A DNA stretch of 64,000 nt from an uncultured Clostridia bacterium (GTDB taxonomy: Bacteria; Bacillota; Clostridia; TANB77; CAG-508), in the NCBI GenBank assembly GCA_934119935.1, contig CAKOSX010000001.1:268299-332298 (forward strand), read 5' to 3'. Positions 8,376 to 30,335 of the stretch are shown piece after piece; position 1 is the stretch's first letter, and each line of letters opens with the position of its first letter. Under the pieces are notes generated by a model. The model did no database searches, had not been told where the DNA came from, and saw only the letters and a list, made by a program, of their open reading frames with translations. The position numbers were made by a program, and so were the translations under genes.

Positions 8376-8414
8376 TATATATAAGTTAATGATAAAAGCA
8401 AAGGGGAATAACAG

Positions 8415-10964: not shown

Positions 10965-10978
10965 AAGAGGAAAGAATT

Positions 10979-11866: not shown

Positions 11867-11867
11867 T

Positions 11868-14226
11868 ATGGAAGAAGAGGGAAAAGAAAAAAAGAACAGG
11901 AAAATAAAAAATGCAGGGAAAAAAATATTAAAAAATACCATTAAAACAATAATAAAGTTCATAAATTTCATAATTAATTTAATTATTAACTTTACTGTGC
12001 CAACATTAATAATAATTGCTGTTCTTATAGTTATTTCATCTATAAAATATGTAATAGATACTCTGGATGGTTCTCGAAATGAAAGTGAGCCACGGGAATG
12101 TAGGACATGTTGTCTCTGAAGAGGTCAGTTCTAAAGTTGTTGTTTCATCTATTGTTAAAACTGATAACGGTTATGGATATGATGTGGACTTAGATGAAAA
12201 AGTAGAGGCTATAAAAAAGGATCTGAAAGAAAACGATGCTGATGATACATTAGATAGATATATAAAAGAAAAAAATCAAAATAAGTATTTAAAGAAGTTT
12301 TTGCAGGCTGAAATAAAAACAAAGTTTCCAGACTTAAGAAACAAAGAGAAAATTGGACAAGCGTTAAAAGAAAATGAACTACAGGGATCAATACAAATAC
12401 ATAGAAAAAATCAAAATGGAAAAGATGAAATTTTAACATATATAGACGGTAAAACATTTAGAGAGTATATAAATTCTAATGATAAAAGAGCTATAGAACA
12501 TTTTTCTCTTAATAGTGATGGTAATTTACTAATTTCTAGCTGGACGAAGAAAACTCTAAAAGATGGAAGTGAAGAGTATTTCCTAAGTGAAGAAATTATC
12601 GATTATAGAGCTCTAACAAAAAGGTATGACATGCCATTTGATTTTTTGTGGGCACTGACAGTAATGGGAAATGATGAGGATTTGTCTTATGAGGTGGCAA
12701 AATTAACGGATGATACAAAGATAGTATTAACAATATATGAAAATGTTGTAAAAACTACAACAGTAAGAAAAACAGAAAATCAGGAAACAGGGAAAACAGA
12801 AGTAACGACCGAAAAATATGAAGAATGTGAAAATCACTTATATATGTCAAGTGCTGTAACATGGGTTGCTGATGTTGAAAATGAATATGTTAACAAGGTT
12901 ATAGATCCTATTGTGAGCCAATATTCGTCAGGTATTAGTGAAGTCACAAAAACAGTTGAAAGAAACGAGTATGTGAAAGGAACTGAAAAAATAACAGAAA
13001 AAATTGACAAAAATTCAGAAAAAGAAAATTTCATTACATTGCTTCTAAAGCATGAAAATGCAACTAATAAGATTTTAACAGCAAGAGATTGGTTCTATGA
13101 AATGCTTGAATCAAGCAATGATACAGTAGATATGATTGATACTATAGATTACTTGCTAGATATAGTAGAGGGCAAAACTACTACTGGAAATATTATTGAA
13201 GAGGGCTCAAAACAAGATATAACGCAGAATCAATTGGTAGATGATATAATAGTTGATACCACAAAAGGAAATAACAATTTAGTTCTAAAAAAAGAACAAT
13301 TAGAAGAAATAATAAGAAAGACATATAAAGATACAGATGACAAGCAGAAAAACTTACTAGGAGCATTAAATTCTTTTTATAAGATTCAATCGGAAAGACA
13401 TGTTAATGCTGTATTTGCAATGGCTGTAGCAATACAGGAATCAAATGCGGGGACAAGTTGGAATTACATAGACAAAAGTACTCATAACTGGATGAGTGTT
13501 ATGGGGCAAAGTGGATATACAGATAAAAATGGCAATACGTGGAAAAAATATGAGAGCTTTTCCGAAGCAACAGAGGACTTTGGAAGATTAATAGAGACAA
13601 ATAATAGCTATTTTGCTGGAGGAAACATAACAGTAAAGCAAATATCTAAGGCATACTGCAGTCCTTCAGAGCCATGGAGTAACCACGTAATATTAAAGAT
13701 GAAAGACTTATATTCATCTATTGGAATTCACTTAGATGATTATATAGATAAGAAGGAAGAAGAAAATTCTAGTGAAGATGCTAATATAACAGCTACAACA
13801 TTTTTAGGAATAGCAAAGCAATGCCATGACTATATTAAAGACAATAATTTTTATTATGTACAAGGAAACAAAATCCCATATCCAAATGGAACAAGTTACA
13901 TTGATTGTAGTGCATATGTTACATGGGTTTTGTATGAATATGGATATACAGAATTTGCGGGGCACCAAAAAGACACTGCCTGGTTTATGGGAAGTGGCCC
14001 ATCAAAAATGGGGTGGACAATATTAAAACCATCTGAGGCAAAGGCTGGAGATCTTCTTGTAAAATCTGGACATATAGAAATATTTGCAGGCGATGGAGTT
14101 GGAACTTATTCAGCAGGTTCTACTAATTCCATAAGAAAAGACATAAGTTACAAAGGATGCAGTTTAAGCAAAATAATTTCAGATGGCGGATTTACTCGAG
14201 CTATTAGAGTAAAAGCACCAAATTAA
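11868..14226 (+). CDS. Membrane-anchored bifunctional peptidoglycan hydrolase (FlgJ-type glucosaminidase plus C-terminal NlpC/P60), CwlT/TcpG-like; read as one gene interrupted by a +1 frameshift (extra C at 12093)
   Basis: ORFs 11868..12119 (TM anchor) and 12067..14226 join in frame if the C at 12093 (CCACGGG) is deleted; glucosaminidase motif VNAVFAMAVAIQESNAGTSWNY; NlpC/P60 Cys/His (DCSAYVTWV…GHIEIF). Confidence 0.6.
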
Positions 14227-14242
14227 GAATGAAGGAAATGCG

Positions 14243-15490
14243 ATGAGTAAAAAGGTATTAATTATAGGACTGATTTTAATATTAATAATTAGTGGAACAG
14301 TCACTATTGTTTTAACGAGAAAGACAGATAATGAGAAAAATATGGATGTTGAGGAGCAAGTAGGAGACGTTGAAACAAAGTTTAAAAGAGAAAAAGTAAG
14401 CAATTCTACAGTATTTTATACTGTAGAAGATTGCATAAATTTTTACATAGATTTTGTCAAAGCAGAGGAGAAAGATAAGATTTTTGAACTGCTGGATGAA
14501 AAATATATTAATGAAAATAATATAAATCAAGAGAATGTACTAAAATATGTAGAAAAGCCGAAATATTCTTTTATAGCATTAGACATGTATGAAAGTGAGT
14601 TAAACAATGTGTGCAACTATATTGTGGAAGGTGTTGCGGATGATGGAATTTACAACACAAAAATGTATTTTAGAGTGGGATTAGATACTAATAATTTTTC
14701 ATTTAACATAATGCCTTTATCTGCAAAGAAGTATAACAACATAGATGAAATAGAAGAAAGTGAAAGTATAGCAGAAATTCCAAACAACGATGCCAATAGT
14801 TATCAGTATAATAGAATAAAAGAAAATGAAATAATAGAAAAAATTTTAAAATATTATTGCGACCTTACTGTAAATAATGTAAAAAAAGCATATGACATGT
14901 TAGAACAAGAATATAGGGAAAAACGATTTGATAAATATAGCAAATTTCAAGATTACATAAAAAAGAGAAGTGAAAATCTAAAACAAGCACGTGTTGCAGG
15001 ATATTCAGTAAAGGAAGAAGAAAATAAAAAAATATATACTGTAGTAGACCAAGACGGAAGGGTATATATATTTAAGCAAAAATCTATAATGAATTTCACT
15101 GTTCAGATGGATGACTATACATTAGAAACAGATGAATATAAAGAAAAATATATGAATTCTACTGTTGTAGATAAAATTAAACTAAATGTAAACAAATTTA
15201 TGAAGATGATTTCTAATTATGATTATGAGAGCGCATATGGGCTATTGAATGAAGCATATAAAAAGAATAATTTTAAAACTGAAAAATCATATGAAAAATT
15301 TATAGAACAGCATTTTTATAATTCAAACTCATATAGCATAGAAAAGATTGAGACAGATGCACAAGATTATATTATTACAATTACTGTTGCAGAAGATGCG
15401 AGTGCATCAGCAGCGAAAAAAACAAATAAGATTGCAATGAGACTAGGGGAGAATACAGAATTTGTAATGGCGGTAATATTAAATGAGTAA
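14243..15490 (+). CDS. Single-pass membrane-anchored hypothetical protein (415 aa)
   Basis: N-terminal TM LIIGLILILIISGTVTIVL then soluble domain; GAAGGAAATG RBS. Confidence 0.5.
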   Translation: MSKKVLIIGLILILIISGTVTIVLTRKTDNEKNMDVEEQVGDVETKFKREKVSNSTVFYTVEDCINFYIDFVKAEEKDKIFELLDEKYINENNINQENVLKYVEKPKYSFIALDMYESELNNVCNYIVEGVADDGIYNTKMYFRVGLDTNNFSFNIMPLSAKKYNNIDEIEESESIAEIPNNDANSYQYNRIKENEIIEKILKYYCDLTVNNVKKAYDMLEQEYREKRFDKYSKFQDYIKKRSENLKQARVAGYSVKEEENKKIYTVVDQDGRVYIFKQKSIMNFTVQMDDYTLETDEYKEKYMNSTVVDKIKLNVNKFMKMISNYDYESAYGLLNEAYKKNNFKTEKSYEKFIEQHFYNSNSYSIEKIETDAQDYIITITVAEDASASAAKKTNKIAMRLGENTEFVMAVILNE

Positions 15491-15555
15491 AATAGGTAAA
15501 AATTTTTTATTTATTATTAATAAACTTTATAAACATTATTATATGAGGAGGAAAA

Positions 15556-15945
15556 ATGATGAACATAAAAGAAAATATAAAGAAAATTATAACAGGAATC
15601 ACAGCTTTTTTTACAACAATTACAACAAAAGTGTTTGCCAAAACAAATACTGATATCCAAAAGGTATTAAATGTTCTAGATGATAGTTATAATATGAGAG
15701 GAGTTTCATTATATGGAATTGAACGACCATGGCAATATACAGTAAGCAATGGATTGTTGAAAATTTGTGAATTTATTGCTATTCCACTTATTTTAATAAT
15801 TGGAGCCATAATTTTTATACAAAGAAAGAAGAATATAAAATCTAAAAATTTAAAAAAAGCTATAATAATTATAAGTATTGTTTATGTTGTTGCTTTTATA
15901 GCTGCACTTATTATTCCAATAATTTATAACCAGATTTATTTCTAG
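15556..15945 (+). CDS. Small secreted/membrane protein: Sec signal peptide plus two C-terminal hydrophobic helices separated by a basic loop (VirB2/TrbC-pilin-like topology)
   Basis: AGGAGG RBS; paralog of 17855..18211 on the opposite strand. Confidence 0.55.
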   Translation: MMNIKENIKKIITGITAFFTTITTKVFAKTNTDIQKVLNVLDDSYNMRGVSLYGIERPWQYTVSNGLLKICEFIAIPLILIIGAIIFIQRKKNIKSKNLKKAIIIISIVYVVAFIAALIIPIIYNQIYF

Positions 15946-19893: not shown

Positions 19894-22509
19894 ATGGCAG
19901 AATACTCACCAATGATGCAACACTATCTTGCTACAAAAGAAAAATATAAAGATTGTATATTATTTTATAGATTAGGAGACTTTTATGAGATGTTCTTCGA
20001 TGATGCGATTAACGTATCTAGAGAGCTTGAACTTACACTAACAGGAAAAGACTGTGGACAAGAGGAAAGGGCTCCGATGTGTGGGATTCCATACCATGCA
20101 GCAGAATCATATATTGCAAAATTAGTTCAAAACGGACATAAAGTAGCAATTTGTGAACAGTTAGAAGATCCAAAGCTTGCAAAAGGAATTGTTAAAAGAG
20201 ATGTTATAAGAGTTGTAACACCAGGAACTGTAACAGAATCTAATTTACTAGAAGAAAAAAGAAACAATTTCATAATGAGCATTTTCAAAAAGGGAATATT
20301 TTTCGGAATAGCAGTTTGTGATATATCAACAGGAGACTTCTATTCGGCAGAAATAAAGGAAGAAAATAATTTTGAGAGATTGCTAGACGAAATTTCAAGA
20401 TATTCTCCATCTGAAATAATTGCAAACGAGATGTTGTACGATTGTGGTGAAGAAATAAGCAAAATAAAAGAACGTTTTGATGTATATATTTCTACCGAAG
20501 ATGAGGAAAAGTTCAGCGAAGAAACAGAAGAAATATATATGCAATATGCACTTAGTGATGATAAAGGAAACATCATAAAAGACTTAGAAAAAAGACCATT
20601 TGCAGTTGCTGCAATAAATGGACTTATAAAATATATTGAAGATACACAAAAAACAAAATTAGAACACATAAACAAGATTACAATTTACACAATTACAAAA
20701 TATATGTCTTTAGATATAAATGCGAGAAGAAACCTAGAACTTACAGAAAAAATGAGGGATAAGTCTAAAAAAGGAACTCTTCTTTGGGTATTGGATAAGA
20801 CAGCAACTTCAATGGGAGGCAGACTTTTAAGAAGATGGATTTCTGATCCGTTGATAGATGTAAAAGAAATAAATAACAGGCTAGAAGCGGTAAAAGAATT
20901 TAAAGATGACATTATATTAAGAGGAGAACTTTCATCAAGCTTAAAAGGTGTATATGATATAGAAAGATTAGCCGGAAAAATATCTTATGGAAGTGCTAAT
21001 GCAAGAGACTTAAATTCTTTAAAATCATCTGCAAGCAAGTTACCAGAAATAAAGAATATGCTTGCAAATGCTAAGTCTGGAATGCTTAGAAAAATATACG
21101 AAGACCTAGACACATTAGATGATATCTTTCAATTAATAGATAAGGCAATAGTAGATGAACCACCAATACTGATAACAGAAGGTGGAATCATAAAAATGGG
21201 ATACAGCCCAGAAATTGATGAATTAAAAACTGCTATGATAGACGGCAAAACTTGGCTCGTACAATTAGAAGCAAGAGAAAGAGAAGAGACGGGAATAAAA
21301 GGCTTAAAGGTAGGCTATAACAAGGTATTTGGTTATTACTTAGAAGTAACAAAATCATATCTATCACAAGTTCCAGACAGATATATAAGAAAACAGACAC
21401 TAACAGGTGGAGAAAGATACATTACAGAAGAGCTAAAAGAGCTTGAAAGCAAAGTGTTAGGAGCAGAAGAAAAAGTTGTAGCACTAGAATACAAAGCTTT
21501 TTCAGAAATAAGAGAACACATAAAATCTCAAATACAAAGACTACAAAAGTCTGCAATGGCAGTATCACAATTAGATGTTTTATGCTCATTTGCTCAAGTA
21601 GCAGAAGATTTTAATTACTGTATGCCAGAAGTAGATGATAGTGGAATTATAGACATTAAAGATGGAAGACACCCGGTAATAGAAAAAATGTTACCAAGTG
21701 GAGCATTTGTTGCAAATGATACATATCTTGATAAAGATTCAAACAGAGTCTCGATAATAACAGGACCAAACATGGCAGGAAAATCAACATATATGAGACA
21801 AGTCGCATTAATTACATTAATGGCTCAAATTGGCTCATTTGTACCAGCAACATCGGCACACATCGGAGTAGTCGATAAAATATTTACAAGAGTTGGCGCA
21901 TCAGATGATTTAAGCATGGGACAGAGTACCTTCATGGTAGAAATGATGGAAGTTGCAAATATTCTAAAGGAAGCAACGGCAAACAGCTTGGTTGTACTAG
22001 ATGAAATAGGAAGAGGAACATCAACATATGATGGACTTTCGATAGCTTGGGCAGTTGCAGAATACATAGAAAACAAGGAAAAATGTGGAGCAAAAACACT
22101 ATTTGCAACACATTATCATGAATTAACACAATTAGAAGATACACTAGAAGGTGTAAAAAACTATTCGATTGCTGTAAAGGAAAAAGGAGAGGACATAATC
22201 TTCCTGAGAAAAATAATTCCTGGAGGGACAGACGAAAGCTATGGCGTACACGTTGCACGTTTGGCAGGAGTTCCAAAGGCAGTAACTCAAAGAGCAAACG
22301 AGATATTAAAGAAAATAGAAAGAAAAAATGTGCTTGTAAACAAGGCGCAAGAAAAAGAAGATAAAAAGCAAGTATCAGGGCAATTAGACTTATACAATTT
22401 CAAACTTGCAGAAATAGCACACGAACTAGACAAAGTAAATGTAAATGAACTAACTCCTATAGAGGCTTTAAATACACTTGTTAAGATAAAAGAAGAAATT
22501 AAGGGGTAA
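19894..22509 (+). CDS. mutS: DNA mismatch repair protein MutS
   Basis: N-terminal mismatch-binding GDFYE motif, Walker A GPNMAGKST, DE motif; full length 871 aa. Confidence 0.95.
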   Translation: MAEYSPMMQHYLATKEKYKDCILFYRLGDFYEMFFDDAINVSRELELTLTGKDCGQEERAPMCGIPYHAAESYIAKLVQNGHKVAICEQLEDPKLAKGIVKRDVIRVVTPGTVTESNLLEEKRNNFIMSIFKKGIFFGIAVCDISTGDFYSAEIKEENNFERLLDEISRYSPSEIIANEMLYDCGEEISKIKERFDVYISTEDEEKFSEETEEIYMQYALSDDKGNIIKDLEKRPFAVAAINGLIKYIEDTQKTKLEHINKITIYTITKYMSLDINARRNLELTEKMRDKSKKGTLLWVLDKTATSMGGRLLRRWISDPLIDVKEINNRLEAVKEFKDDIILRGELSSSLKGVYDIERLAGKISYGSANARDLNSLKSSASKLPEIKNMLANAKSGMLRKIYEDLDTLDDIFQLIDKAIVDEPPILITEGGIIKMGYSPEIDELKTAMIDGKTWLVQLEAREREETGIKGLKVGYNKVFGYYLEVTKSYLSQVPDRYIRKQTLTGGERYITEELKELESKVLGAEEKVVALEYKAFSEIREHIKSQIQRLQKSAMAVSQLDVLCSFAQVAEDFNYCMPEVDDSGIIDIKDGRHPVIEKMLPSGAFVANDTYLDKDSNRVSIITGPNMAGKSTYMRQVALITLMAQIGSFVPATSAHIGVVDKIFTRVGASDDLSMGQSTFMVEMMEVANILKEATANSLVVLDEIGRGTSTYDGLSIAWAVAEYIENKEKCGAKTLFATHYHELTQLEDTLEGVKNYSIAVKEKGEDIIFLRKIIPGGTDESYGVHVARLAGVPKAVTQRANEILKKIERKNVLVNKAQEKEDKKQVSGQLDLYNFKLAEIAHELDKVNVNELTPIEALNTLVKIKEEIKG

Positions 22510-22512
22510 CCA

Positions 22513-23769
22513 ATGAATAATAAAATTTTGAATAAATTAAATACAATAGTGGCTAAAGGCTATAAATTTTTTATAGCCCTAGTTGCTATTGTTTTTATTA
22601 TGCTTGTAATAATGTTAGGTTACATAGTTAATAAAAAATATACAGTAGCCATTATGACTGTTGCAAAACCTGAAAATAGAAAATCTACACTAATAATGAA
22701 GCAAGAAGAAGGAAATGTACAAAAATTAAAAGAAATTATAGAAAAAAATACAAGTGATATAGTAAAAGAAGAAATTTATGTTGAGGAGGCGGACCTAGAA
22801 TTTACTACAAGGTATGAGAAAAGCGATAAAATTGCTACTGGTACAATTCAGGTTGTTCAAGATGGAATTGATGGAAAGCAAAAAATTACCAAAAAGAAAA
22901 AATACATTAATGATGAACTAATAAGTGATGAGGTTGTTGGAAGTCAAATAGTAAAATCTTCTGTAGATAAGATTGTAAAAATAGGAACAGGACCAAGCTA
23001 TCTAAAATACCAGGTGTCAAAAAATGACACGATGTATGTAACCTCGAATACATTGGCACTAAGGCAAGAAGCAAATAACGATGCTCAAAAAATAATTACT
23101 ATAAATGAAAATGATGAAATAAAGGTGTTACAAATAGCAGACGATTGGTACCTAGTTCAATATGGAACCTATTCAGGATGGGCAAAAGCAGATTGTCTAA
23201 CAAAAAATGATCCGAATAAAAACATTTCTAATAACAATGAGGGTGGTAATTATTCAAAATCTCAGTTATTGCAGAATCTAAGTTTTGGTATGAGCTTAAA
23301 CAAAAAGAGTGGTCTATCATTAGCACAATTTGAAAAAATATTCGAGAATAACGAAAATGATAAGAAAGGTGTAATGAAAGAAAATGCAAAATATTTTTAT
23401 TATGCTGAACAACAGTATAATGTAAATGGAGTATTTCTTGCATCTGTTGCAATACACGAAAGCAACTGGGGAACATCTGCAATGGCTCAAAATAAGAAGA
23501 ATTTATTTGGATATGGAGCATATGATAGGGATCCATCTGGAAATGCATATTCTTTTGCATCTTATTCAGAAGGGATTGATCTACTTGCTAGAGTATTTGT
23601 TAAATATTATTTGAATCCTAAAGGAACCACTATTTATAACGGGGAGACTGCAACAGGAAGCCATTACAATGGAAATACATTGACGGCTGTAAACACAAAA
23701 TATGCAACTGACAAAAATTGGGCAAATTCTGTTTATAAATGGATGAAATATTTATATAATAAAATTTAA
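22513..23769 (+). CDS. Membrane-anchored cell-wall hydrolase: bacterial SH3 domain plus mannosyl-glycoprotein endo-beta-N-acetylglucosaminidase domain
   Basis: N-terminal TM; SH3-like segment (…DDWYLVQYGTYSGWAKADCL); glucosaminidase motif VFLASVAIHESNWGTS. Confidence 0.6.
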   Translation: MNNKILNKLNTIVAKGYKFFIALVAIVFIMLVIMLGYIVNKKYTVAIMTVAKPENRKSTLIMKQEEGNVQKLKEIIEKNTSDIVKEEIYVEEADLEFTTRYEKSDKIATGTIQVVQDGIDGKQKITKKKKYINDELISDEVVGSQIVKSSVDKIVKIGTGPSYLKYQVSKNDTMYVTSNTLALRQEANNDAQKIITINENDEIKVLQIADDWYLVQYGTYSGWAKADCLTKNDPNKNISNNNEGGNYSKSQLLQNLSFGMSLNKKSGLSLAQFEKIFENNENDKKGVMKENAKYFYYAEQQYNVNGVFLASVAIHESNWGTSAMAQNKKNLFGYGAYDRDPSGNAYSFASYSEGIDLLARVFVKYYLNPKGTTIYNGETATGSHYNGNTLTAVNTKYATDKNWANSVYKWMKYLYNKI

Positions 23770-23891
23770 AATAAAATGAAAAATAGTAAGAAAATTTCTT
23801 GCTATTTTTTTCATTCTAGTGTAAAATGTTATATGTATAATATTTATATGAAAAATAAGAGAAAATTAAATAAAGAGAGAGGGATAATTAT

Positions 23892-24293
23892 ATGAAAAAA
23901 ATACTAGCAATCATATCTATCTTGTTTTTCTTAATGGGGTGTACATCTGTGTATGCTGAAAGCCAATTGAACACAGTTCCACAGGATGCAACAGGAAAAT
24001 TAATAGAGATAAAAGACAAAGAATTGAAAACAATGGAAGAGTATAAAGAAGCCTATGGCTCAGATGCATATGGTATTACAGCATATTTATTAAATAAAGT
24101 TAGAATTTATAGTATACCTTTTGGATTTGTATCAATTATAATAGCAGCAATATATCAATACATAATAGGATTAAAAAAATTGGACGTAAGAGACAAAGGT
24201 TTTGCATTGATGATTGCAAGTGTTACTATAGTAGTAATATGTCAAGTATTGCCACTTGTTTTTGCAATTGTAGTAAAAGGTTGGAGGGGTTAA
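23892..24293 (+). CDS. Small lipoprotein with two C-terminal hydrophobic helices
   Basis: Lipobox LMGC after a signal peptide; topology resembles the small proteins at 15556 and 17855. Confidence 0.5.
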   Translation: MKKILAIISILFFLMGCTSVYAESQLNTVPQDATGKLIEIKDKELKTMEEYKEAYGSDAYGITAYLLNKVRIYSIPFGFVSIIIAAIYQYIIGLKKLDVRDKGFALMIASVTIVVICQVLPLVFAIVVKGWRG

Positions 24294-24297
24294 ACTA

Positions 24298-27039
24298 ATG
24301 AAGGTTTTATTCGCAGTAAATAATGAAAAGATTTCAGAGGCTATAATAAAAAAGTACCAAACAATGTACAAGGAAATAATTTCATGGAAAAACGTCTATT
24401 TTTTCAATGCGATAATAAAAGAGTTACAAAAAGATAAATCTTATGACAGAATTGTTATAGGCGAAGATTTGGAACCTTATGCAAACAATAATTACGAAGT
24501 TATAGATAATTTATTGTTTGATAAGTTAGACAGCATAAGTGATGAGGCTTCTAACAGTAGAGATGGAGATATTCCAATAATATTAATAGCAACAGATAGA
24601 AGAGAAAGGGGAAATTCTCTTCTTGTAAAGTTATTTGGAATTGGAATTTATAATGTATTACTTGGACAAGATAGAAAAATTGATAATGTTTGTCAATTAA
24701 TCTATCAACCTCGTACGAAAAAAGAGGCAAAAGCTTATTACAGAATTGATTCTGATGATGTAAACTATCAGGAAATTGATCCTGAGAGTGTAAGTGAAGT
24801 GGAAATCCAAAACATACTAACTCATTATAAAAAATTAGGAAAGAATGAAGATAGATATGTTGAAAGCTTTGAAGAAATTGCCACACAGTATACTGATGCT
24901 CAATTAAAGCTTATTACCAGAGCTCTGCCTTTAAATGTAAGAGCTGTTTTAGAGGAAAAATGCCCAAAATATCAACAAGTAATGATTGGTAGTGTGAAAA
25001 ATCAGGTGGCAGCACAGAAAAAATCTGCTAAGCAATTTACGAGCAAAAATATACAGAGTAAAAATATTAACAAAATTGAGTTGATTGATAGAGAATTACA
25101 AAAATCAAAATTAACGAAGCCAGTTGTTATTCCTTCAACAATCAATATGCAAAATGTAAAAAAAGCATATACAATGCCTAGAAGTGAAGAACAAGATATT
25201 CTGCAAAATATTCAACCAAATACAATGCAGACTCCACCAGAAAGAATGATACCAGATTTTTCTCAGGATATTATTCAAAATGATCAAACCAGTATTCAAC
25301 CAAACATTCAGCAAAATATTCAGCCAAGCTTTCAACCTGATTTTTCAAACAATTTCGTACAAAATAATAATGCTTCGAATTTTGAAAATAACGCTCCATT
25401 CTTGCCAAATGTGGAACCTGAAAAAGATGAAATACAAGAACAGAATGCTGAACCAGTAAAGAAGGGCAGAGGTAGACCTAAAAAAGAAAAAACGCCAGAA
25501 GAAATTGCCGCTGAGGAGGCAAAAGAGAAAAAGGGCAGAGGCAGACCAAGAAAAAATGTTGAACAACCTTCAAATGAAAATACTAATGTTTCTCAGGATG
25601 TTAATTTATTTGAGATATATAACCAAAACAACGCAGAAAATAATGTAAACGATGTAAATAATGTAATATTGCCAGGTTTTGAAGAAGAGACAAAAGATGC
25701 TAATGGTACAGAAAATCAGAATTTACAATTCAACTCAGTAGCACAAGAGGATGACACAAACGTTGATTTCTTTGGCAATAAATTAAATCGTGATTTTAAT
25801 CCAGATTTTTTCGGAAATGAAGCACAGGTTGATAGGCTCCCAGGTACAGAAAAACAAAAAAAGGAAGAACCAAAAAAGATTGAACCGATTGTACCTAATA
25901 AAGAAGTTCCAAAAGTTGTAGAAAATATAAAAAATGATAATATAAAAATTGAAGAAAAACCAGTCGAAATAAAGAATAATGATGTTAAAGAAAATATAAA
26001 TGCAAATCAAAATATTATTCCAAATATTGAAGATGTTAGTATCAGTATGCCTGGTTTTGAAGATGTAAATAACGGACAAAACAATAATCAAATAGAACCA
26101 GTAAGAGAAAATGTAAATTACGGAAATTCAGAATTATCAAATTTAATAACAGGTGATAAGAAGATTGTGGCATTTGTTGGAACATCTAAAAATGGAACAT
26201 CTTTCTTAGTAAATAACTTGGCAGCGCAAATGTCTAACAAGGGAATAAAAACTGCAATTTTGGATCTTACTAAAAATAAAAATGCATATTATATATATAC
26301 TTTAAATGAAGATTCACTAAGAGAAAAGGCATTTAATTGCATAGAAAAGCTAAGAAGAGGTGTCGCAGACGGAATTCAAGTAAATAAGAATTTATCTGTT
26401 TATACAACATTACCTGGAGAAAATTTGAGTTTAGATGATTATAAAAATGTATTAGAAACACTTGTAAGAAATTATTCATTAGTATTATTAGATTGTGATT
26501 TTGATACAGATTCAAACTACTTTGCTAGTGCACAAGAATTATATTTAGTACAAACATATGACATATTAACAATACAACCATTAACAGCATTTTTAAATGA
26601 ATTAAAGTATAAAAATATTTTAGATCAAAATAAGTTAAGAATTGTAATAAACAAAACATTGAAATTAAGAAAGCTTACAGATAAAATGATTATTGCCGGA
26701 ATTTCTTGTTACAATGATCCTGCATCAACATATATTAACACATTATTTGATAGAGATCATGTAAGATATACAACAATTCCATTTGAAGATCAAACTTATG
26801 CAAGGTACCTAGAAAGACTTGTAGACTGCGAGATATCATTAAATGGATACTCAAAGATGTTTTTGGATGCATTAGAAAGATTAGGAAATATGGTTTATCC
26901 ACTAATTGCAAATAATCCAAATAAGTATCAGCCAGGAAAGAAAAATTTTAATGACTATAGTAAAAATAACAAAAATGTAAATACAGCTTTTAATAGCAAC
27001 ATGAATGCTACTTTAAATAAAATGAGAAATAATTTTTAA
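24298..27039 (+). CDS. TadZ/CpaE-like protein: N-terminal receiver-like domain, Q/N/P-rich low-complexity linker with two AT-hook motifs (KKGRGRPKK, KKGRGRPRK), C-terminal ParA/MinD-fold with degenerate Walker A
   Basis: Domain order read from sequence; Walker-A-position sequence VAFVGTSKNGTSF lacks the GKT lysine; AT-hook GRGRP cores at aa about 385 and 410. Confidence 0.45.
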   Translation: MKVLFAVNNEKISEAIIKKYQTMYKEIISWKNVYFFNAIIKELQKDKSYDRIVIGEDLEPYANNNYEVIDNLLFDKLDSISDEASNSRDGDIPIILIATDRRERGNSLLVKLFGIGIYNVLLGQDRKIDNVCQLIYQPRTKKEAKAYYRIDSDDVNYQEIDPESVSEVEIQNILTHYKKLGKNEDRYVESFEEIATQYTDAQLKLITRALPLNVRAVLEEKCPKYQQVMIGSVKNQVAAQKKSAKQFTSKNIQSKNINKIELIDRELQKSKLTKPVVIPSTINMQNVKKAYTMPRSEEQDILQNIQPNTMQTPPERMIPDFSQDIIQNDQTSIQPNIQQNIQPSFQPDFSNNFVQNNNASNFENNAPFLPNVEPEKDEIQEQNAEPVKKGRGRPKKEKTPEEIAAEEAKEKKGRGRPRKNVEQPSNENTNVSQDVNLFEIYNQNNAENNVNDVNNVILPGFEEETKDANGTENQNLQFNSVAQEDDTNVDFFGNKLNRDFNPDFFGNEAQVDRLPGTEKQKKEEPKKIEPIVPNKEVPKVVENIKNDNIKIEEKPVEIKNNDVKENINANQNIIPNIEDVSISMPGFEDVNNGQNNNQIEPVRENVNYGNSELSNLITGDKKIVAFVGTSKNGTSFLVNNLAAQMSNKGIKTAILDLTKNKNAYYIYTLNEDSLREKAFNCIEKLRRGVADGIQVNKNLSVYTTLPGENLSLDDYKNVLETLVRNYSLVLLDCDFDTDSNYFASAQELYLVQTYDILTIQPLTAFLNELKYKNILDQNKLRIVINKTLKLRKLTDKMIIAGISCYNDPASTYINTLFDRDHVRYTTIPFEDQTYARYLERLVDCEISLNGYSKMFLDALERLGNMVYPLIANNPNKYQPGKKNFNDYSKNNKNVNTAFNSNMNATLNKMRNNF

Positions 27040-27067
27040 AATAACAAAATGAGGTGAGACTTTTTAA

Positions 27068-28159
27068 ATGATAACAGTAATAATAGTTATAGTGCTTTCA
27101 TCAATAATTATAGGATTAATGTTGTACAACATGTCGATTCATAAAAAAATAGAAGCATTTAAAAACATAAATCAGCAAATCACAAGCTTGAATGTATTAC
27201 AAGATTTCATGGATACAATAAGTGAGACATCAAGTGTAGATGAAAAGCTAAAAAGAATAAATGAAATATTAATTGAAAAGTATGGGATAAAGTATTCAAC
27301 TATTGTTGTATATACTGGAGCTGAATTTTCAATAAAAGCCTCAAATGTAGCAGAAAAACATTGGGATGTTTTAAAAAATTTACAATCAGAACCTGTTTTC
27401 AAAGACAGTATAGATACTGGAATTCCAAAATATATCACTGTTGAGAAAGAAGGAGAAAAATTACCATACCAAAAGATGGAATTTGGAAGAGCAAAGTCTG
27501 CAATGTTTTTCCCAATATATATTGATAATGTATACATTGGATATTGGATAATAGAGGGAAGCACACCACATGAATTTGATGATGTTGATACTACTATTCT
27601 AGAAGTTGTAAAAAATAACATAGTAGCTGTTCTTAAGACTGTTGAAAATCAATCAACTATAGAAAAAATTGTAAAAGACGATAAATATTCAGAATTAAAA
27701 ACTGCAGAGTATTTGTATACAGAAGGTAAAAAAGTTATAGATAGATATACGACATCAACAGTATGTTTATTTAAAATAATAAACCTTGTAGATATAAATG
27801 AAAAAATAAGCAGAAAAACAGGAGATAATACGATAACTCAAATCTGCAGAACAATAAAGCAAGACTTGGCACCTGAATATTTATTTGTAAGATATATGGG
27901 ACCAAAATTTGCAATTGTTTTTTCAGGGGTTGAATTACAAGCCGTTGAAGAATTTATGAAAGATGTAAAAGCAAAAGCAGAAGCTCTTAAAATAGAACCT
28001 GCAGAGGACTATAGTGGAGATTGCAAAGAGGTATCACCAAAATTAAATATTGCTCTAGCGAGGTATTATAAAGGTACTGCATTAATCGGAGTTACAAAAA
28101 AACTAGAAGAATACCTAGATACAACAGATCCTTTAGAGAGTAATATAAATTATTTATAG
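27068..28159 (+). CDS. Membrane-anchored protein with degenerate GGDEF-like domain (RYMGPKF in place of RYGGEEF), probably non-catalytic
   Basis: N-terminal TM; GGDEF-like fold signature with active-site substitutions. Confidence 0.4.
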   Translation: MITVIIVIVLSSIIIGLMLYNMSIHKKIEAFKNINQQITSLNVLQDFMDTISETSSVDEKLKRINEILIEKYGIKYSTIVVYTGAEFSIKASNVAEKHWDVLKNLQSEPVFKDSIDTGIPKYITVEKEGEKLPYQKMEFGRAKSAMFFPIYIDNVYIGYWIIEGSTPHEFDDVDTTILEVVKNNIVAVLKTVENQSTIEKIVKDDKYSELKTAEYLYTEGKKVIDRYTTSTVCLFKIINLVDINEKISRKTGDNTITQICRTIKQDLAPEYLFVRYMGPKFAIVFSGVELQAVEEFMKDVKAKAEALKIEPAEDYSGDCKEVSPKLNIALARYYKGTALIGVTKKLEEYLDTTDPLESNINYL

Positions 28160-28169
28160 GAGGTTTTAA

Positions 28170-28424
28170 ATGGTTACAGACGAAACTGTTAGTTTTAATG
28201 TTGAAAAAGAAAAAAATAAAAAAACAAAAGAGATTTTGAAGTCAGTATATGAAGCATTAACAGAGAAAGGATATAATCCTATTAATCAAATTGTTGGATA
28301 TATACTTTCAGGAGATCCTACTTATATAACAAGCCATAATAATGCAAGAAACTTAATAAGACAAGTTGAAAGAGACGAGCTTTTGGAAGAAATGGTTAAA
28401 ACATATATAGGATTGGACAAGTAG
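28170..28424 (+). CDS. ireB: IreB-family regulatory phosphoprotein (UPF0297)
   Basis: [48 protein letters not shown] matches the UPF0297/YrzL family; ireB-ruvX-DUF1292 synteny. Confidence 0.85.
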
Positions 28425-28425
28425 T

Positions 28426-28851
28426 ATGAGGGCGTTAGGAATTGATTATGGTGATGCGAGAGTTGGAATTGCTATTACAGATCCACTAGGCTATACTGCA
28501 CAAGGGCTCGAAACAATACATCACCAAGGAAATGACAAAATTGTTCTAAAGCGTTTAGAAGAAATAGTGAATCAGTATAATAATGAAATAGACACATTTG
28601 CAATTGGAATGCCAATAAATATGGATGGCACAAAAAGAGAAAGAGCAGAAGTTACAGAAAAATTCATTCACAAATTGCAATGTAAATTCAATAAAATAAA
28701 AATTGTTAGAATAGATGAAAGATTAACAACTGTAGAAGCACACAAAACTATGAATTTTTTAAATGTAAATAAACATAAAAAAAGAAATATTGTTGATACT
28801 ATTTCTGCAGTTTATATACTCGAATCTTATATGAAAATGTCTAAAAGTTAA
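28426..28851 (+). CDS. ruvX: Putative pre-16S rRNA nuclease / Holliday-junction resolvase-like YqgF
   Basis: MRALGIDYGDARVGIAITDPLGYTAQGLETI N-terminal RNase H-like motif. Confidence 0.85.
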   Translation: MRALGIDYGDARVGIAITDPLGYTAQGLETIHHQGNDKIVLKRLEEIVNQYNNEIDTFAIGMPINMDGTKRERAEVTEKFIHKLQCKFNKIKIVRIDERLTTVEAHKTMNFLNVNKHKKRNIVDTISAVYILESYMKMSKS

Positions 28852-28956
28852 TTGAATATAATTGACAAAAAGTAAAGATAATAGTATAAATAAGATGACT
28901 TTATTATTGTAGAAATACAAAATTAATAAATAAAAGCCTGAAAGGAGAAAGAAAAA

Positions 28957-29277
28957 ATGGATGACGAGAAAATAACAAATAACTCTGAGGATGAGCTAGA
29001 GAGCAGCATCATGGAGTTAGAAGATGAAGATGGAAAAAAGGTAAAATTTGAATGTTTGGATTATATAGAATATGACAATGAAGAATATGCAGTTTTATTA
29101 CCAGCTGATGAAGAAGATAGCGACGAGCCAGGAGAAGTTGTAATATTAAAAGTTGAAGACAACGACTCTGATAGTGAAATGTTATCATACGTTAGTGTTG
29201 ATGATGCAGAGATTTTAAACAAAGTTTTTGACATATTCAAAGATAAATTTAAAAACGAATTTGACTTCGTAGACTAA
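28957..29277 (+). CDS. DUF1292 (YrzB-like) acidic small protein
   Basis: ELEDEDGKKVKFECLDYIEYDNEEYAVLLP… pattern of the DUF1292 family; conserved position after ruvX. Confidence 0.7.
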   Translation: MDDEKITNNSEDELESSIMELEDEDGKKVKFECLDYIEYDNEEYAVLLPADEEDSDEPGEVVILKVEDNDSDSEMLSYVSVDDAEILNKVFDIFKDKFKNEFDFVD

Positions 29278-29283
29278 TTAAAA

Positions 29284-29322
29284 AAACTATTGAGAATATG
29301 TTGTATTTTCAATAGTTTTTAT
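29284..29322 (+). terminator. Rho-independent terminator
   Basis: AAACTATTGA…TCAATAGTTT hairpin plus T-run. Confidence 0.6.
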
Positions 29323-29345
29323 TTGTTAAAACAGGAGAGGAAAAA

Positions 29346-29819
29346 ATGCAGAAATTTAGTACTTGGATGGTATTGTCTTTAGATGTAATGTTTTGGATAT
29401 TAAGAATTATAGCGGCTTTAACCAATACAATGGCGATTGATTTCATGATAAAGCCAATAGATATGAATATGGAAATTATAATGATATTTGTTGCTTTAGT
29501 GTCATTTGTTTTAATTGCGAAAAGAAAATTCTTAGGTGCAATTATATATATGATTGGTTATTTTGGCTATTTTGGAGTTGCATTAGTAACTAATCTACAA
29601 AAAATGACAACTACAGGTGGAAGCGTAAACGATTATGGTACAGTAATGTTTTCTCTAGTTGGAGTAGCTCTGCCAATATTTACTTTTTTAGACTTATTAC
29701 TAGATAAAAATAGACAATTACATCCTACAGATAAAAAAACAGATTGGTTTTATAAAGATGAAAAATACGATATGAAAAAGGATGAAAGAGCAGACAAAAA
29801 TAATTACAGGACTTTATAG
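29346..29819 (+). CDS. Hypothetical integral membrane protein (4 TM)
   Basis: GGAGAGGAAAAAATG RBS, hydrophobic helices. Confidence 0.5.
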   Translation: MQKFSTWMVLSLDVMFWILRIIAALTNTMAIDFMIKPIDMNMEIIMIFVALVSFVLIAKRKFLGAIIYMIGYFGYFGVALVTNLQKMTTTGGSVNDYGTVMFSLVGVALPIFTFLDLLLDKNRQLHPTDKKTDWFYKDEKYDMKKDERADKNNYRTL

Positions 29820-29906
29820 TATGAACAATTTAAACGAAATTTATATAAATTTACTAAAAGTATACTCAGCAATTAAAGCAAAATAGAGATAAAAAAGGAA
29901 ACTAAA

Positions 29907-30335
29907 ATGATTAATACTAGATTAACTCAAAAAGCCATGATTATAGCATATAATGCCCATAATGGACAAGCAGATAAAGCGGGAGTTCCATATATATATC
30001 ACCCAATACACGTCGCAGAGCAAATGACAACCGAAACAGAATGCATAGTTGCATTGCTACATGATGTTGTGGAGGATACAGAGGTTACCTTTAAACAGTT
30101 AGAAACATTCTTTTCTGGTGAAGTAATCGAAATACTTAAATTATTAACTAGAAATGAAAATGCAGATTATTATGAATATATAAAAAAAATAAAAAAGAAT
30201 CCAATAGCTAGAAAAGTAAAAATTGCTGATTTAAATCATAATCTTGATATTACACGACTAAACGAGATCAAAGAAGAAGACATGAAGAGAATTGAAAAAT
30301 ACAAAAAAGCGATGAAGATTTTAAAAGGAAAGTAA
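29907..30335 (+). CDS. Small HD-domain phosphohydrolase (RelA/SpoT-N-terminal-like HD, possible (p)ppGpp hydrolase type)
   Basis: HPIHVAEQM…LLHDVVEDT HD motif; AAGGAAACTAAAATG RBS. Confidence 0.6.
   Translation: MINTRLTQKAMIIAYNAHNGQADKAGVPYIYHPIHVAEQMTTETECIVALLHDVVEDTEVTFKQLETFFSGEVIEILKLLTRNENADYYEYIKKIKKNPIARKVKIADLNHNLDITRLNEIKEEDMKRIEKYKKAMKILKGK

What the first reader, a model, noticed from the sequence alone, without database searches (positions are those of the whole stretch)
24298..27039. Orphan TadZ/CpaE-like protein carrying two AT-hook DNA-binding motifs and a degenerate Walker A
The 913-aa protein has an N-terminal receiver-like fold, a long Q/N/P-rich linker with two KKGRGRP(K/R)K AT-hooks, and a C-terminal ParA/MinD-fold. 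Its P-loop (VGTSKNGTSF) lacks the catalytic lysine, so it is probably a non-catalytic scaffold. AT-hooks are rare in bacteria. Combined with a ParA-like fold they suggest nucleoid-tethered positioning of an envelope structure. No TadA/TadB/TadC/Flp genes are nearby, so this is not a canonical tad locus.
Basis: partly seen in the sequence, partly recalled or inferred. Interest (0 to 1): 0.55.

Follow-up and report, generated by a model that had tools for sequence, protein, structure and literature searches.

The report
Lysine-less ParA/MinD-like protein with AT-hooks
An uncultured gut Clostridia lineage (TANB77, CAG-245-like) encodes a conserved, unannotated protein that joins a dead receiver domain and a MinD/ParA-type fold lacking both catalytic lysines through a disordered linker carrying two eukaryote-style AT-hook DNA-binding motifs, always next to a small membrane protein, so it is probably a passive nucleoid/membrane scaffold and not a pilus TadZ.

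Summary
The ORF at 24298-27039 (913 aa) has a CheY-like pseudo-receiver and a helical subdomain. A 370-residue N/E/K/Q/P-rich linker follows, with two KKGRGRP(K/R)K AT-hooks, then a ParA/MinD-fold domain and a conserved C-terminal helix. AF2 models (pLDDT 85-88) and Foldseek support both folds; sequence searches only weakly link the C-domain to CbiA/ParA and BY-kinases.

The "degenerate" P-loop is a conserved derived motif. In 199 full-length relatives the Walker lysine position is never Lys. All 43 orthologues keep exactly two RGRP cores inside an otherwise unalignable linker.

The gene is not an orphan. It is tightly coupled to an upstream small membrane protein (signal peptide plus 2 TM) in every context examined. 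In the window's subfamily a GGDEF-like protein with a fixed dead motif (MGPKF) follows, then ireB-ruvX-DUF1292.

A sister subfamily lacks the hooks and the GGDEF-like neighbour and ends in a MinD-like KKGLFG tail. It is not a TadZ/CpaE member: the Walker-like motif, family models and tad context all fail, and TANB77 has a separate Tad cluster with its own TadZ/CpaE.

Best reading, mostly inferred: a non-canonical, probably non-hydrolysing scaffold linking nucleoid and membrane partner. New variant of a known kind; moderate interest.

The parts
23799..23827 (+). promoter-like site (TTGCTA-17-TAAAAT) in the 122-nt gap upstream of the small partner gene
   Evidence: Consensus scan. Such sites are not enriched over shuffles, so this is only a candidate. 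Sequence read.
23892..24293 (+). small membrane partner (133 aa): signal peptide or N-terminal TM helix, about 45 residues predicted outside, then two TM helices joined by a conserved basic loop G-x-K/R-K-L-D-x-K/R-x-x-G
   Evidence: Translation; hydropathy and alignments. A homologue lies immediately upstream of the family member in the loci long enough to show it among L001-L052 and in 6 further independent contexts. No Pfam, NCBIfam, PADLOC or PHROG hit. 4316 homologous clusters, all unannotated.
24298..27039 (+). the 913-aa protein (whole ORF including stop)
   Evidence: The GGAGGGG ribosome-binding site lies inside the end of the upstream ORF, with a 4-nt gap.
24298..24705 (+). CheY-like pseudo-receiver domain (residues 1-136)
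   Evidence: AF2 pLDDT 88. Foldseek hits: VraR 4gvp E=4.5e-4; ComE, DesR and the CpaE N-domain 4n0p at TM 0.6-0.7, rmsd 3.4-4. The acidic pair and the conserved Lys are absent, and Glu56 is invariant at the phospho-acceptor position.
24718..24960 (+). helical subdomain (residues 141-221; four helices at 167-221), conserved, function unknown
   Evidence: AF2 secondary structure and conservation. Foldseek alignments to full-length NarL/VraR/RcsB span about 230 columns but with rmsd above 12, so an HTH identity is unproven.
25003..26112 (+). hypervariable N/E/K/Q/P-rich linker (residues 236-605) with conserved short motifs
   Evidence: Conservation profile and composition. Orthologue lengths of 738-1078 aa are driven by this region.
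25117..25137 (+). KPVVIPS motif, a conserved island at the start of the linker
   Evidence: (28 of 43 orthologues).
25459..25485 (+). AT-hook 1, KKGRGRPKK
   Evidence: The RGRP core is present in 43 of 43 orthologues. The Pfam AT_hook score is 16.6 bits against a cutoff of 17.4.
25528..25554 (+). AT-hook 2, KKGRGRPRK, separated from hook 1 by an acidic stretch (EKTPEEIAAEEAKE)
25669..25683 (+). LPGFE, first of three [LM]PG[FT]E linker motifs (the others are at 25837-25851 and 26047-26061)
   Evidence: LPG[FLMIV][DEG] is present in 40 of 43 orthologues, mean 1.9 copies. Coordinates.
26143..26898 (+). ParA/MinD-fold (SIMIBI) domain, residues 616-867
   Evidence: AF2 pLDDT 85. Foldseek hits: ParA 3ea0 E=1.2e-8 with TM 0.72, plus MinD, FlhG, FleN, BcsQ, Soj and NifH. 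The family profile hits CapB BY-kinases at E=5e-3. 13 of 24 family C-domains weakly match Pfam CbiA, best 1.5e-5. hhalign to E. coli MinD covers the P-loop to switch I.
26176..26205 (+). lysine-less P-loop-like motif VGTSKNGTSF
   Evidence: Aligned to MinD GKGGVGKTT: K11 to T, K16 to T, T17 to S. The Walker-K position is T in 182, V in 10, S in 4, I in 2 and N in 1 of 199 relatives, never K.
26986..27036 (+). conserved C-terminal helix AFNSNMNATLNKMRNNF, with F/M/L/M/F on one face
   Evidence: (helix at pLDDT about 60). It co-varies with the AT-hooks.
27068..28159 (+). N-terminally membrane-anchored protein with a degenerate GGDEF domain (GG[DE]EF replaced by MGPKF)
   Evidence: Pfam GGDEF E=7e-7; TM helix. 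The MGPKF motif is present in 54 of 55 loci. It is present next to subfamily-A members and absent next to subfamily-B members.
28170..29277 (+). ireB, ruvX and DUF1292 genes, the usual downstream continuation of the operon
   Evidence: No + strand terminator-like site from 23892 to 30335. Not universal: absent in L059.

Best explanation
The protein is the large cytoplasmic subunit of a conserved two-gene module, a small bitopic-loop membrane protein plus this protein, that belongs to the ParA/MinD structural class but has given up the canonical ATPase chemistry. Shown here: a pseudo-receiver (no acidic pair, no Lys, invariant Glu at the acceptor position); a ParA/MinD fold whose P-loop has Thr at both lysine positions throughout the family; two HMGA-type AT-hooks preserved in an otherwise free-running disordered linker; a conserved C-terminal helix; and tight translational coupling to the membrane partner. 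Inferred: in a roughly 30% GC genome the two hooks tether the protein non-specifically to the AT-rich chromosome without needing ATP-dependent dimerisation. The ParA/MinD-like domain, the pseudo-receiver or the C-terminal helix dock onto the cytoplasmic loop of the small membrane protein and, in this subfamily, onto the membrane-anchored dead-GGDEF protein. The assembly therefore acts as a static or ligand-gated nucleoid-to-membrane scaffold. It probably organises a cell-envelope or division-related process, given the recurrent peptidoglycan hydrolase or PBP5 genes upstream and ireB downstream. The sister subfamily, with no hooks and a KKGLFG tail resembling the MinD membrane-targeting end, would be the membrane-only version of the same device.
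For: Folds. Weak sequence links to CbiA/ParA, BY-kinase and MinD. Family-wide absence of both Walker lysines, with invariant P-loop glycines, switch-I Asp, Walker-B Asp, INK, YNDP and IPFED. Hooks: exactly two in 43 of 43 orthologues, chance below 5e-6 for two, constrained spacing, embedded in a non-conserved linker. Co-variation of hooks with tail type (61 of 78 two-hook members end in TLNKM; 74 of 125 hook-less members end in KKGLF). Gene pair conserved in 52 species-level loci plus 6 further contexts, including one with no other shared neighbours. A 4-nt gap with the RBS inside the upstream ORF, and no internal terminators. Fixed dead GGDEF motif in the third gene. The review PMC11407121 states that A/D ATPases use C-terminal amphipathic helices for membrane binding or basic surfaces for DNA binding, which is the logic invoked here. 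Composition matches the host, with no phage or defence affiliation.
Against: No experiment or interaction prediction links the three proteins. Synteny is the only evidence. The strongly conserved P-loop region and Asp residues could mean that a nucleotide or another ligand is still bound or even hydrolysed by an unconventional mechanism (Lys630 within GTSKNG). The hydrophobic moment of the C-terminal helix is unremarkable (65th percentile within the protein, with an Asn-rich rather than basic polar face), so membrane binding by the tail is unsupported. The cell-envelope theme rests on loosely conserved neighbours. AT-hooks could serve gene regulation rather than bulk nucleoid tethering. No information is available on Min, Noc or ParAB content of these genomes.
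Confidence: 0.4

Rival explanations
1. The ParA/MinD-like domain is not a pseudo-enzyme. It still binds a nucleotide (ATP, or a second messenger such as c-di-GMP or (p)ppGpp) and switches state, using Lys630 of GTSKNG or a partner-supplied residue in place of the Walker lysines. The protein is then a genuine dynamic positioning switch.
For: P-loop glycines, Ser634 (equivalent to MinD T17), the switch-I Asp, the Walker-B Asp and the IPFED motif are invariant or nearly so. Lys at position 4 of the motif is nearly invariant. Such conservation is unnecessary for a mere scaffold. TadZ itself has a Walker-like motif without the classical lysine (consensus K/RGGXGXS/T, bioRxiv 10.64898/2026.07.08.737194). 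The neighbour is a GGDEF-family protein, and FleN-FleQ complexes, which respond to c-di-GMP, are among the structural hits.
Against: Both the signature and the catalytic lysine positions are Thr in 182 of 199 relatives and never Lys. The neighbouring GGDEF domain is itself dead (MGPKF), so it cannot supply c-di-GMP. No coordinates were available to inspect the pocket.
Confidence: 0.25
2. It is an architectural transcription factor or nucleoid-associated regulator in the manner of CarD/HMGA: the receiver-like domain and helical subdomain act as a signal or RNAP-contact module, the AT-hooks bind DNA, and the ParA-like domain drives oligomerisation.
For: Canonical HMGA-type hooks flank an acidic stretch. 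Foldseek aligns residues 1-230 with full-length NarL/VraR/RcsB-type response regulators. Bacterial AT-hook-like motifs are best known from nucleoid-associated silencers and CarD (papers listed).
Against: The full-length response-regulator alignments have rmsd above 12 A and TM 0.36-0.46. No HTH family is detected by Pfam or PDB profile searches. The sister subfamily has no hooks at all yet keeps every other domain and the membrane partner, so DNA binding is an add-on, not the core function.
Confidence: 0.15
3. It is a trans-acting TadZ/CpaE-type localisation factor for the Tad-like pilus that is conserved in TANB77.
For: Same domain order as TadZ (atypical receiver plus atypical ParA/MinD domain). 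The CpaE receiver-like domain 4n0p is among the best N-domain structural matches. 122 of 129 TANB77 species carry a Tad-like cluster (PMC11680825).
Against: That cluster already encodes its own TadZ-like (231 aa) and CpaE-like (280 aa) proteins. No tad genes lie in this window or in any of the 60 related loci. There is no hit to TadZ or CpaE sequence models. The Walker-like motif differs (GTSKNGTS against K/RGGXGXS/T). Conserved synteny is with a small membrane protein and ireB-ruvX.
Confidence: 0.08
4. It is a BY-kinase-like module, in which the small membrane protein plays the role of the CapA/CpsC transmembrane activator of a cytoplasmic P-loop kinase involved in surface polysaccharide export.
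For: The best PDB sequence-profile hits are CapA1/CapB chimeras (E=5e-3). The split arrangement of a two-TM membrane protein followed by a cytoplasmic P-loop protein resembles Firmicute BY-kinases (established knowledge).
Against: There is no Walker A lysine. There is no C-terminal tyrosine cluster (sequence). The small partner has no significant Wzz hit, and no polysaccharide genes are adjacent.
Confidence: 0.04

Closest known systems
TadZ / CpaE (Tad pilus localisation factor; atypical receiver domain plus atypical ParA/MinD ATPase domain)
   Same: Same domain order. The receiver-like domain lacks the phospho-acceptor chemistry, and the ParA/MinD fold has a Walker-like motif without the classical GK[ST] lysine. 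The CpaE N-domain (4n0p) is a top structural match.
   Different: No match to TadZ or CpaE sequence models. The motif GTSKNGTS lacks the K/R-G-G signature of TadZ. A helical subdomain and a 370-aa disordered linker with AT-hooks are inserted between the domains. It is never found in a tad locus, and the host clade has separate TadZ- and CpaE-like genes inside its Tad cluster.
MinD / FlhG / FleN (membrane-binding ParA/MinD ATPases)
   Same: Fold (Foldseek E about 1e-7, TM 0.65-0.7). Landmarks retained: P-loop glycines, Thr/Ser after the loop, switch-I Asp, Walker-B Asp and an IPxED-like motif. There is a C-terminal extension after the fold, and in the sister subfamily it ends in K-K-G-L-F-G, like the end of the MinD membrane-targeting sequence (MinD tail recalled from memory).
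   Different: Both the signature and the catalytic lysines are replaced. There is an N-terminal pseudo-receiver. No MinC- or MinE-like partners are adjacent. The window's own tail is Asn-rich and not clearly a membrane anchor.
ParA / Soj (nucleoid-binding partition ATPases)
   Same: Fold (3ea0, 2bek, 8ray) and the presumed use of the nucleoid as a matrix.
   Different: ParA binds DNA through a basic surface formed by the ATP-bound dimer (PMC11407121). Here DNA binding would come from two AT-hooks in a flexible linker and would not depend on ATP. No parB or parS lies nearby.
HMGA proteins and Myxococcus CarD (canonical AT-hook proteins)
   Same: An R-G-R-P core flanked by Lys/Arg (KKGRGRPKK), multiple hooks separated by about 20 residues, and an adjacent acidic stretch.
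   Different: The hooks are attached to a receiver-like and ParA/MinD-like protein rather than to a chromatin or RNAP-binding module. The Pfam AT_hook score is just below the gathering threshold (16.6 against 17.4 bits).
Noc (B. subtilis) and RocS (S. pneumoniae): proteins that bind both DNA and membrane to coordinate the nucleoid with division (recalled from memory, not tested)
   Same: A proposed working principle: simultaneous attachment to chromosome and membrane. RocS also works with a ParA-like BY-kinase (CpsD).
   Different: No sequence or fold relationship. Noc is ParB-like, RocS has an HTH, and both carry their own amphipathic helix. The analogy is functional only and untested here.

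Membership tests
TadZ/CpaE | N-terminal atypical receiver domain (CheY fold without phospho-acceptor chemistry) | tested here: met
   AF2 pLDDT 88. Foldseek hits to receiver domains, including CpaE 4n0p at TM 0.6-0.7. The acidic pair and the Lys are absent.
TadZ/CpaE | Walker-A-like motif K/RGGXGXS/T (consensus quoted in bioRxiv 10.64898/2026.07.08.737194) | tested here: not met
   The motif is G-T-S-K-N-G-T-S. There is no K/R-G-G in any of 199 relatives.
TadZ/CpaE | Recognised by TadZ or CpaE sequence models or similar to solved TadZ/CpaE sequences | tested here: not met
   NCBIfam gave 0 families. Pfam on 22 N-domains and 24 C-domains gave no TadZ-type family. PDB profile searches at E up to 10 returned no TadZ or CpaE chain.
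TadZ/CpaE | Encoded in a tad/cpa locus with TadA/CpaF, TadB/C and pilins | tested here: not met
   None in the 64-kb window or in 60 related loci. The clade's Tad cluster is elsewhere and has its own TadZ/CpaE.
TadZ/CpaE | Polar localisation and requirement for pilus assembly | not testable with these tools
   Needs microscopy or genetics, and the organism is uncultured.
ParA/MinD (A/D) ATPases | SIMIBI-class ParA/MinD fold | tested here: met
   Foldseek: 302 PDB hits at E up to 1e-3; top hits are ParA, MinD, FlhG, FleN, BcsQ and Soj at TM 0.65-0.73.
ParA/MinD (A/D) ATPases | Deviant Walker A KGGxxGK[ST] with signature and catalytic lysines | tested here: not met
   hhalign to E. coli MinD gives K11 to T and K16 to T. 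The residue is never Lys in 199 relatives.
ParA/MinD (A/D) ATPases | Switch-I and Walker-B aspartates | tested here: met
   Invariant D in ILD(L/M)T, aligned to MinD D38, and invariant D-x-D in LLDCDF. MinD D40 is Thr here.
ParA/MinD (A/D) ATPases | ATP-dependent sandwich dimer with partner- and matrix-stimulated ATPase (PMC11407121) | not testable with these tools
   Needs biochemistry. No multimer prediction was available.
ParA/MinD (A/D) ATPases | C-terminal matrix-binding element (amphipathic helix or basic surface) | tested here: inconclusive
   The conserved C-terminal helix has F/M/L/M/F on one face but an ordinary hydrophobic moment and an Asn-rich polar face. The sister subfamily ends in a KKGLFG-type tail.
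Response-regulator receiver (CheY-like) | Phospho-acceptor Asp, acidic pair after beta1, Thr/Ser after beta4, Lys after beta5 | tested here: not met
   Beta1 end is G/N/S-N/S. Beta3 end has an invariant Glu56. Beta4 end is S/T99. Beta5 end is Gly123 with no Lys. Positions were mapped from the AF2 secondary structure, because hhalign to CheY found no alignment.
AT-hook (HMGA type) | G-R-P core within R-G-R-P, flanked by basic residues, in a disordered region | tested here: met
   KKGRGRPKK and KKGRGRPRK, conserved in 43 of 43 orthologues. The Pfam AT_hook score of 16.6 bits is just under the 17.4 cutoff.
AT-hook (HMGA type) | Minor-groove binding to AT-rich DNA | not testable with these tools
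   Needs EMSA or footprinting.
BY-kinase (CapB/CpsD type) | Walker A lysine and a C-terminal tyrosine cluster | tested here: not met
   The profile hit to CapB at E=5e-3 aligns the family's Thr to the CapB Walker Lys. There is no Tyr cluster in the tail.
Diguanylate cyclase (GGDEF), for the downstream neighbour | GG[DE]EF active-site motif | tested here: not met
   MGPKF in 54 of 55 loci. The domain is recognised by Pfam at E=7e-7.

The most novel reading that the evidence does not exclude
A lineage of ParA/MinD-class proteins has dispensed with ATP-driven matrix cycling. It swaps plug-in matrix anchors instead: a MinD-like basic-hydrophobic tail in one subfamily, and two HMGA-type AT-hooks (plus a new tail and a dead-GGDEF partner) in the other. 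In TANB77 gut bacteria the hook-bearing form, docked to its small membrane partner, would act as an ATP-independent nucleoid-to-membrane tether, analogous to Noc or RocS. That tether would couple chromosome position to septal or cell-wall synthesis in reduced genomes that may lack classical Min or Noc systems.
Probability: 0.2. Interest if true: 0.75.

Novelty: new variant of a known kind. Interest (0 to 1): 0.5.

Why it matters
ParA/MinD ATPases are the main spatial organisers of bacterial cells, and their mechanism is thought to depend on ATP-controlled binding to the nucleoid or the membrane. This family has 583 clusters at 50% identity and is found in thousands of gut and rumen metagenome contigs. 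It keeps the fold but never the catalytic lysines, and in one branch it acquired eukaryote-type AT-hooks. If it does tether to DNA, it would show a different, modular route to matrix binding. It would also be one of the few bacterial uses of canonical AT-hooks outside CarD and the xenogeneic silencers. The host clade, TANB77 (genus CAG-245), is uncultured and abundant in humans, and has recently been linked to immunotherapy response. Conserved clade-typical cell-biology modules there are almost entirely unexplored. The operon also offers a compact three-protein test case in which all three signalling folds (receiver, P-loop, GGDEF) are conserved in inactivated form.

Tried and rejected
- Single-sequence Pfam and NCBIfam scans of the protein gave nothing except a sub-threshold AT_hook.
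- Single-sequence phmmer of either domain against the PDB gave nothing significant.
- The N-domain profile against the PDB and Pfam gave nothing, and hhalign of the N-domain profile to CheY gave no alignment. The receiver assignment therefore rests on structure prediction only.
- PADLOC and PHROGs scans of the trio gave no defence or phage affiliation.
- Tandem-repeat search of the gene found only low-scoring short repeats, so the hooks are not part of a DNA repeat array.
- The promoter scan was not enriched over shuffles.
- I tested whether the unannotated 695-aa ORF (1404-3491) is the TadB/C fusion reported for TANB77. It has no TM helices, so this was rejected.
- I tested whether p129 (15556-15945), which has the same topology as the small partner, is its paralogue. 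BLASTP gave E=0.23, so this was rejected.
- The TadZ structure paper (PMC3272108) is not held, so TadZ nucleotide-binding details are taken from memory or from secondary sources only.
- AF2 coordinates are not exposed, so the P-loop pocket and the position of Lys630 could not be inspected.
- The low-complexity-artefact reading was rejected on conservation.


Full report
**1. Observation**

The ORF at 24298-27039 on the + strand runs from ATG to a stop codon and encodes 913 aa. The window is about 30% GC throughout, with a long co-directional gene run, and the gene's composition does not stand out. The two motifs are present as described: KKGRGRPKK at residues 388-396 and KKGRGRPRK at residues 411-419. 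So is VGTSKNGTSF, at residues 627-636.

Pfam and NCBIfam see no ParA, CbiA or receiver domain in this protein. They report only an AT_hook match at 16.6 bits, against a cutoff of 17.4.

**2. The family**

The protein has thousands of close, unannotated relatives in gut metagenomes. It has 583 representatives at 50% identity in the exhaustive search, reaching down to about 30% identity over the full length. A scan of one genome per species found 52 loci, all from uncultured "Clostridia bacterium" or "Clostridium sp." MAGs, including CAG:273 and CAG:245.

Locus L017 (Clostridium sp. CAG:245) has MiaB and MutS 99% identical to the window's. CAG-245 is a genus of the uncultured order TANB77 (PMC11680825), so the window comes from that clade.

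**3. Anatomy and conservation**

An alignment of 43 full-length orthologues shows:
- a conserved N-terminal region, residues 1-230;
- a linker, about residues 236-605, that is essentially unalignable and drives length variation from 738 to 1078 aa;
- a conserved C-terminal domain, residues 616-870;
- a conserved 17-residue C-terminal tail.

Within the linker only short islands survive: KPVVIPS, the two hooks with the acidic stretch between them, a [IV][ND]LF motif, and LPG[FLM][DE] (40 of 43 orthologues, about two copies each).

Every one of the 43 orthologues has exactly two RGRP cores, usually 19-24 residues apart. Shuffling the window's linker gives one RGRP in 7e-4 of trials and two in none of 200,000. 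The hooks are therefore selected features and not low-complexity noise. No DNA tandem repeat underlies them.

**4. Folds**

An AF2 model of residues 606-913, built on a 24-sequence alignment, reached pLDDT 84.8. It matches ParA (3ea0, E=1.2e-8, TM 0.72), MinD, FlhG, FleN, BcsQ, Soj and NifH.

Sequence-level support is weak but consistent:
- 13 of 24 family C-domains touch Pfam CbiA (best 1.5e-5; the window's own is 0.04).
- The family profile hits CapB BY-kinase chains at E=5e-3.

A model of residues 1-280 reached pLDDT 88.4. It matches CheY-like receivers, including the receiver-like domain of Caulobacter CpaE (4n0p, TM 0.6-0.7, rmsd 3.4-4). A four-helix subdomain (residues 167-221) and a long helix follow the receiver. 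Alignments to full-length NarL-type regulators cover this subdomain, but with rmsd above 12, and no HTH family is detectable by sequence. I leave it unassigned.

**5. Catalytic residues**

In the MinD alignment the family's G-T-S-K-N-G-T-S-F lies on G-K-G-G-V-G-K-T-T. The signature lysine K11 and the catalytic lysine K16 are both Thr. T17 is Ser, D38 is an invariant Asp, and D40 is Thr.

Across 199 full-length relatives the Walker-lysine position is T (182), V (10), S (4), I (2) or N (1), and never K. At the same time the P-loop glycines, a Lys at motif position 4, the switch-I Asp, the D-x-D of LLDCDF, INK, YNDP and IPFED are invariant or nearly so. The motif is a fixed derived state, not decay. 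Canonical ATP hydrolysis is very unlikely, but ligand binding cannot be excluded.

In the receiver-like domain the acidic pair after beta1 and the Lys after beta5 are missing, and an invariant Glu occupies the phospho-acceptor position. It is a pseudo-receiver.

**6. Genomic context**

The gene is not an orphan. A 133-aa ORF ends 4 nt upstream, and the target's GGAGGGG ribosome-binding site lies inside that ORF's end. Its product has a signal peptide or N-terminal TM helix, about 45 residues predicted outside, and two TM helices joined by a conserved basic loop.

A homologue sits immediately upstream of the family member in every one of the 52 loci that extends far enough. The same is true in six further contexts of distant relatives. 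One of these, L059, shares nothing else with the window: it follows the ATP synthase operon and has no ireB.

In the window's branch, a membrane-anchored protein with a GGDEF domain follows downstream. Its active-site motif is MGPKF in 54 of 55 loci. Then come ireB, ruvX and a DUF1292 gene. No + strand terminator-like site occurs between 23892 and 30335. Upstream neighbours vary but are often cell-wall enzymes: G5-SH3-glucosaminidase, PBP5-type carboxypeptidase, or Cu_amine_oxidN1 proteins.

**7. Two subfamilies**

| Feature | Subfamily A (the window's) | Subfamily B |
|---|---|---|
| P-loop-like motif | GT[ST]KNGTSF | G[AS]NKxGTTF |
| AT-hooks | two | none |
| C-terminal tail | ...MNxTLNKM+NNY | K-K-G-L-F-G or R-R-F-F-G |
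| GGDEF-like neighbour | present | absent |

Hooks and tail type co-vary strongly: 61 two-hook members have the TLNKM tail against 1 with KKGLF, and 74 hook-less members have KKGLF against 6 with TLNKM. One hook-less member with an A-like tail (P0369) still has the GGDEF-like neighbour.

The B-type tail resembles the end of the MinD membrane-targeting sequence (recalled from memory). The A-type tail places F/M/L/M/F on one helical face, but its hydrophobic moment is ordinary.

**8. Relation to TadZ/CpaE**

The domain order and both folds match TadZ. TadZ also lacks the classical Walker lysine; its consensus is K/RGGXGXS/T (bioRxiv 10.64898/2026.07.08.737194). Every membership criterion that could be tested beyond fold fails:
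- no K/R-G-G in the motif;
- no hit to TadZ or CpaE sequence models or PDB sequences;
- no tad genes in the whole window or in related loci.

In addition, 122 of 129 TANB77 species carry a Tad-like cluster elsewhere that encodes its own TadZ-like (231 aa) and CpaE-like (280 aa) proteins, with a CAG-245 genome as the reference (PMC11680825). The protein therefore resembles TadZ in design but is not a TadZ.

**9. Mechanism**

Shown here: the architecture, the loss of canonical catalytic residues in the receiver-like, ParA/MinD-like and neighbouring GGDEF domains, the selected AT-hooks, and the obligate pairing with a small membrane protein.

Inferred: the hooks tether the protein to the AT-rich chromosome independently of ATP. 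The folded domains or the tail dock to the membrane partner and, in subfamily A, to the GGDEF-like protein. The complex then acts as a nucleoid-membrane scaffold for an envelope- or division-related process. This follows the general logic of A/D ATPases, which use C-terminal amphipathic helices for membrane binding or basic surfaces for DNA binding (PMC11407121), but with plug-in anchors replacing the ATP-dependent ones. I put this at about 0.4.

The main rival is that the pocket still binds a ligand and the protein is a genuine switch (0.25). Other rivals are a CarD/HMGA-like regulator (0.15), a trans-acting TadZ (0.08) and a BY-kinase-like module (0.04).

**10. Novelty and verdict**

No curated model in Pfam (2025), NCBIfam (2026), PADLOC or PHROGs covers the family. 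Literature searches for AT-hook plus ParA turned up only nucleoid silencers and CarD.

This is a new variant of a known kind: a ParA/MinD-superfamily protein with TadZ-like architecture. Its unusual and well-conserved additions are the AT-hooks, the lysine-less P-loop, the obligate small membrane partner and the dead-GGDEF neighbour. It occurs in an abundant, uncultured human gut clade. Interest is moderate (0.5). The combination is new and the conservation is strong, but the function is inferred from architecture and synteny only.

Noticed in passing
window 5982-15945 (+): A cluster of unannotated envelope proteins. It holds two paralogous proteins of about 800 aa, each with a signal peptide and multiple TM helices (5982-8375 and 8415-10964, 42% identical). 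It also holds a 295-aa single-TM protein, a 719-aa protein with a glucosaminidase domain, a 415-aa single-TM protein, and a 129-aa protein with a signal-like N-terminus plus two C-terminal TM helices. The make-up (multi-TM proteins, a peptidoglycan hydrolase and a small two-TM protein) loosely recalls Gram-positive secretion or conjugation-type envelope assemblies, but no ATPase is present.
   Followed up: partly
window 19894-24298 compared with L002 and L017: There is a sharp step in identity to the CAG:245 loci. MiaB and MutS are 98-99% identical. From the G5-SH3-glucosaminidase gene onward the neighbours drop to 69-94% (IreB 92-93%, RuvX 94%, DUF1292 69%) and the target to 62-78%. This suggests a recombination boundary just after mutS, in addition to the very fast-evolving linker.
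   Followed up: no
window 19894-23769: mutS is followed not by mutL but by a membrane-anchored G5-SH3-glucosaminidase gene. No mutL was seen among the annotated ORFs of the window.
   Followed up: no
window 27068-28159: The downstream GGDEF-domain protein has a fixed MGPKF in place of GG[DE]EF in 54 of 55 related loci. It also gives a sub-threshold Pfam HTH_60 match in its N-terminal part. It is a conserved pseudo-cyclase of unknown role.
   Followed up: partly
window 23892-24293 and its homologues: Some database copies of the small membrane partner are named 'PBP1b-binding outer membrane lipoprotein LpoB' by JGI. This is almost certainly an automatic mislabel for a Gram-positive protein. The window copy has a lipobox-like LMGC, which is not conserved in the homologues.
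   Followed up: partly
window 29907-30335: A 142-aa ORF consists only of the N-terminal HD (hydrolase) part of a RelA/SpoT-type protein (Pfam HD_4; TIGR00691 positions 1-118 of 687). It could be a small stand-alone (p)ppGpp hydrolase or a gene fragment.
   Followed up: no
window 1404-3491 and 41482-42831: Two sizeable ORFs have no Pfam match: one of 695 aa with a TTG start and no TM helices, and one of 449 aa with one N-terminal TM helix.
   Followed up: no
L056/L057 (contig of 628-747 kb), locus positions 1-779: In a subfamily-A relative, a TraG/VirD4-type coupling protein gene lies about 6 kb upstream on the opposite strand. This is probably an unrelated integrated element.
   Followed up: no
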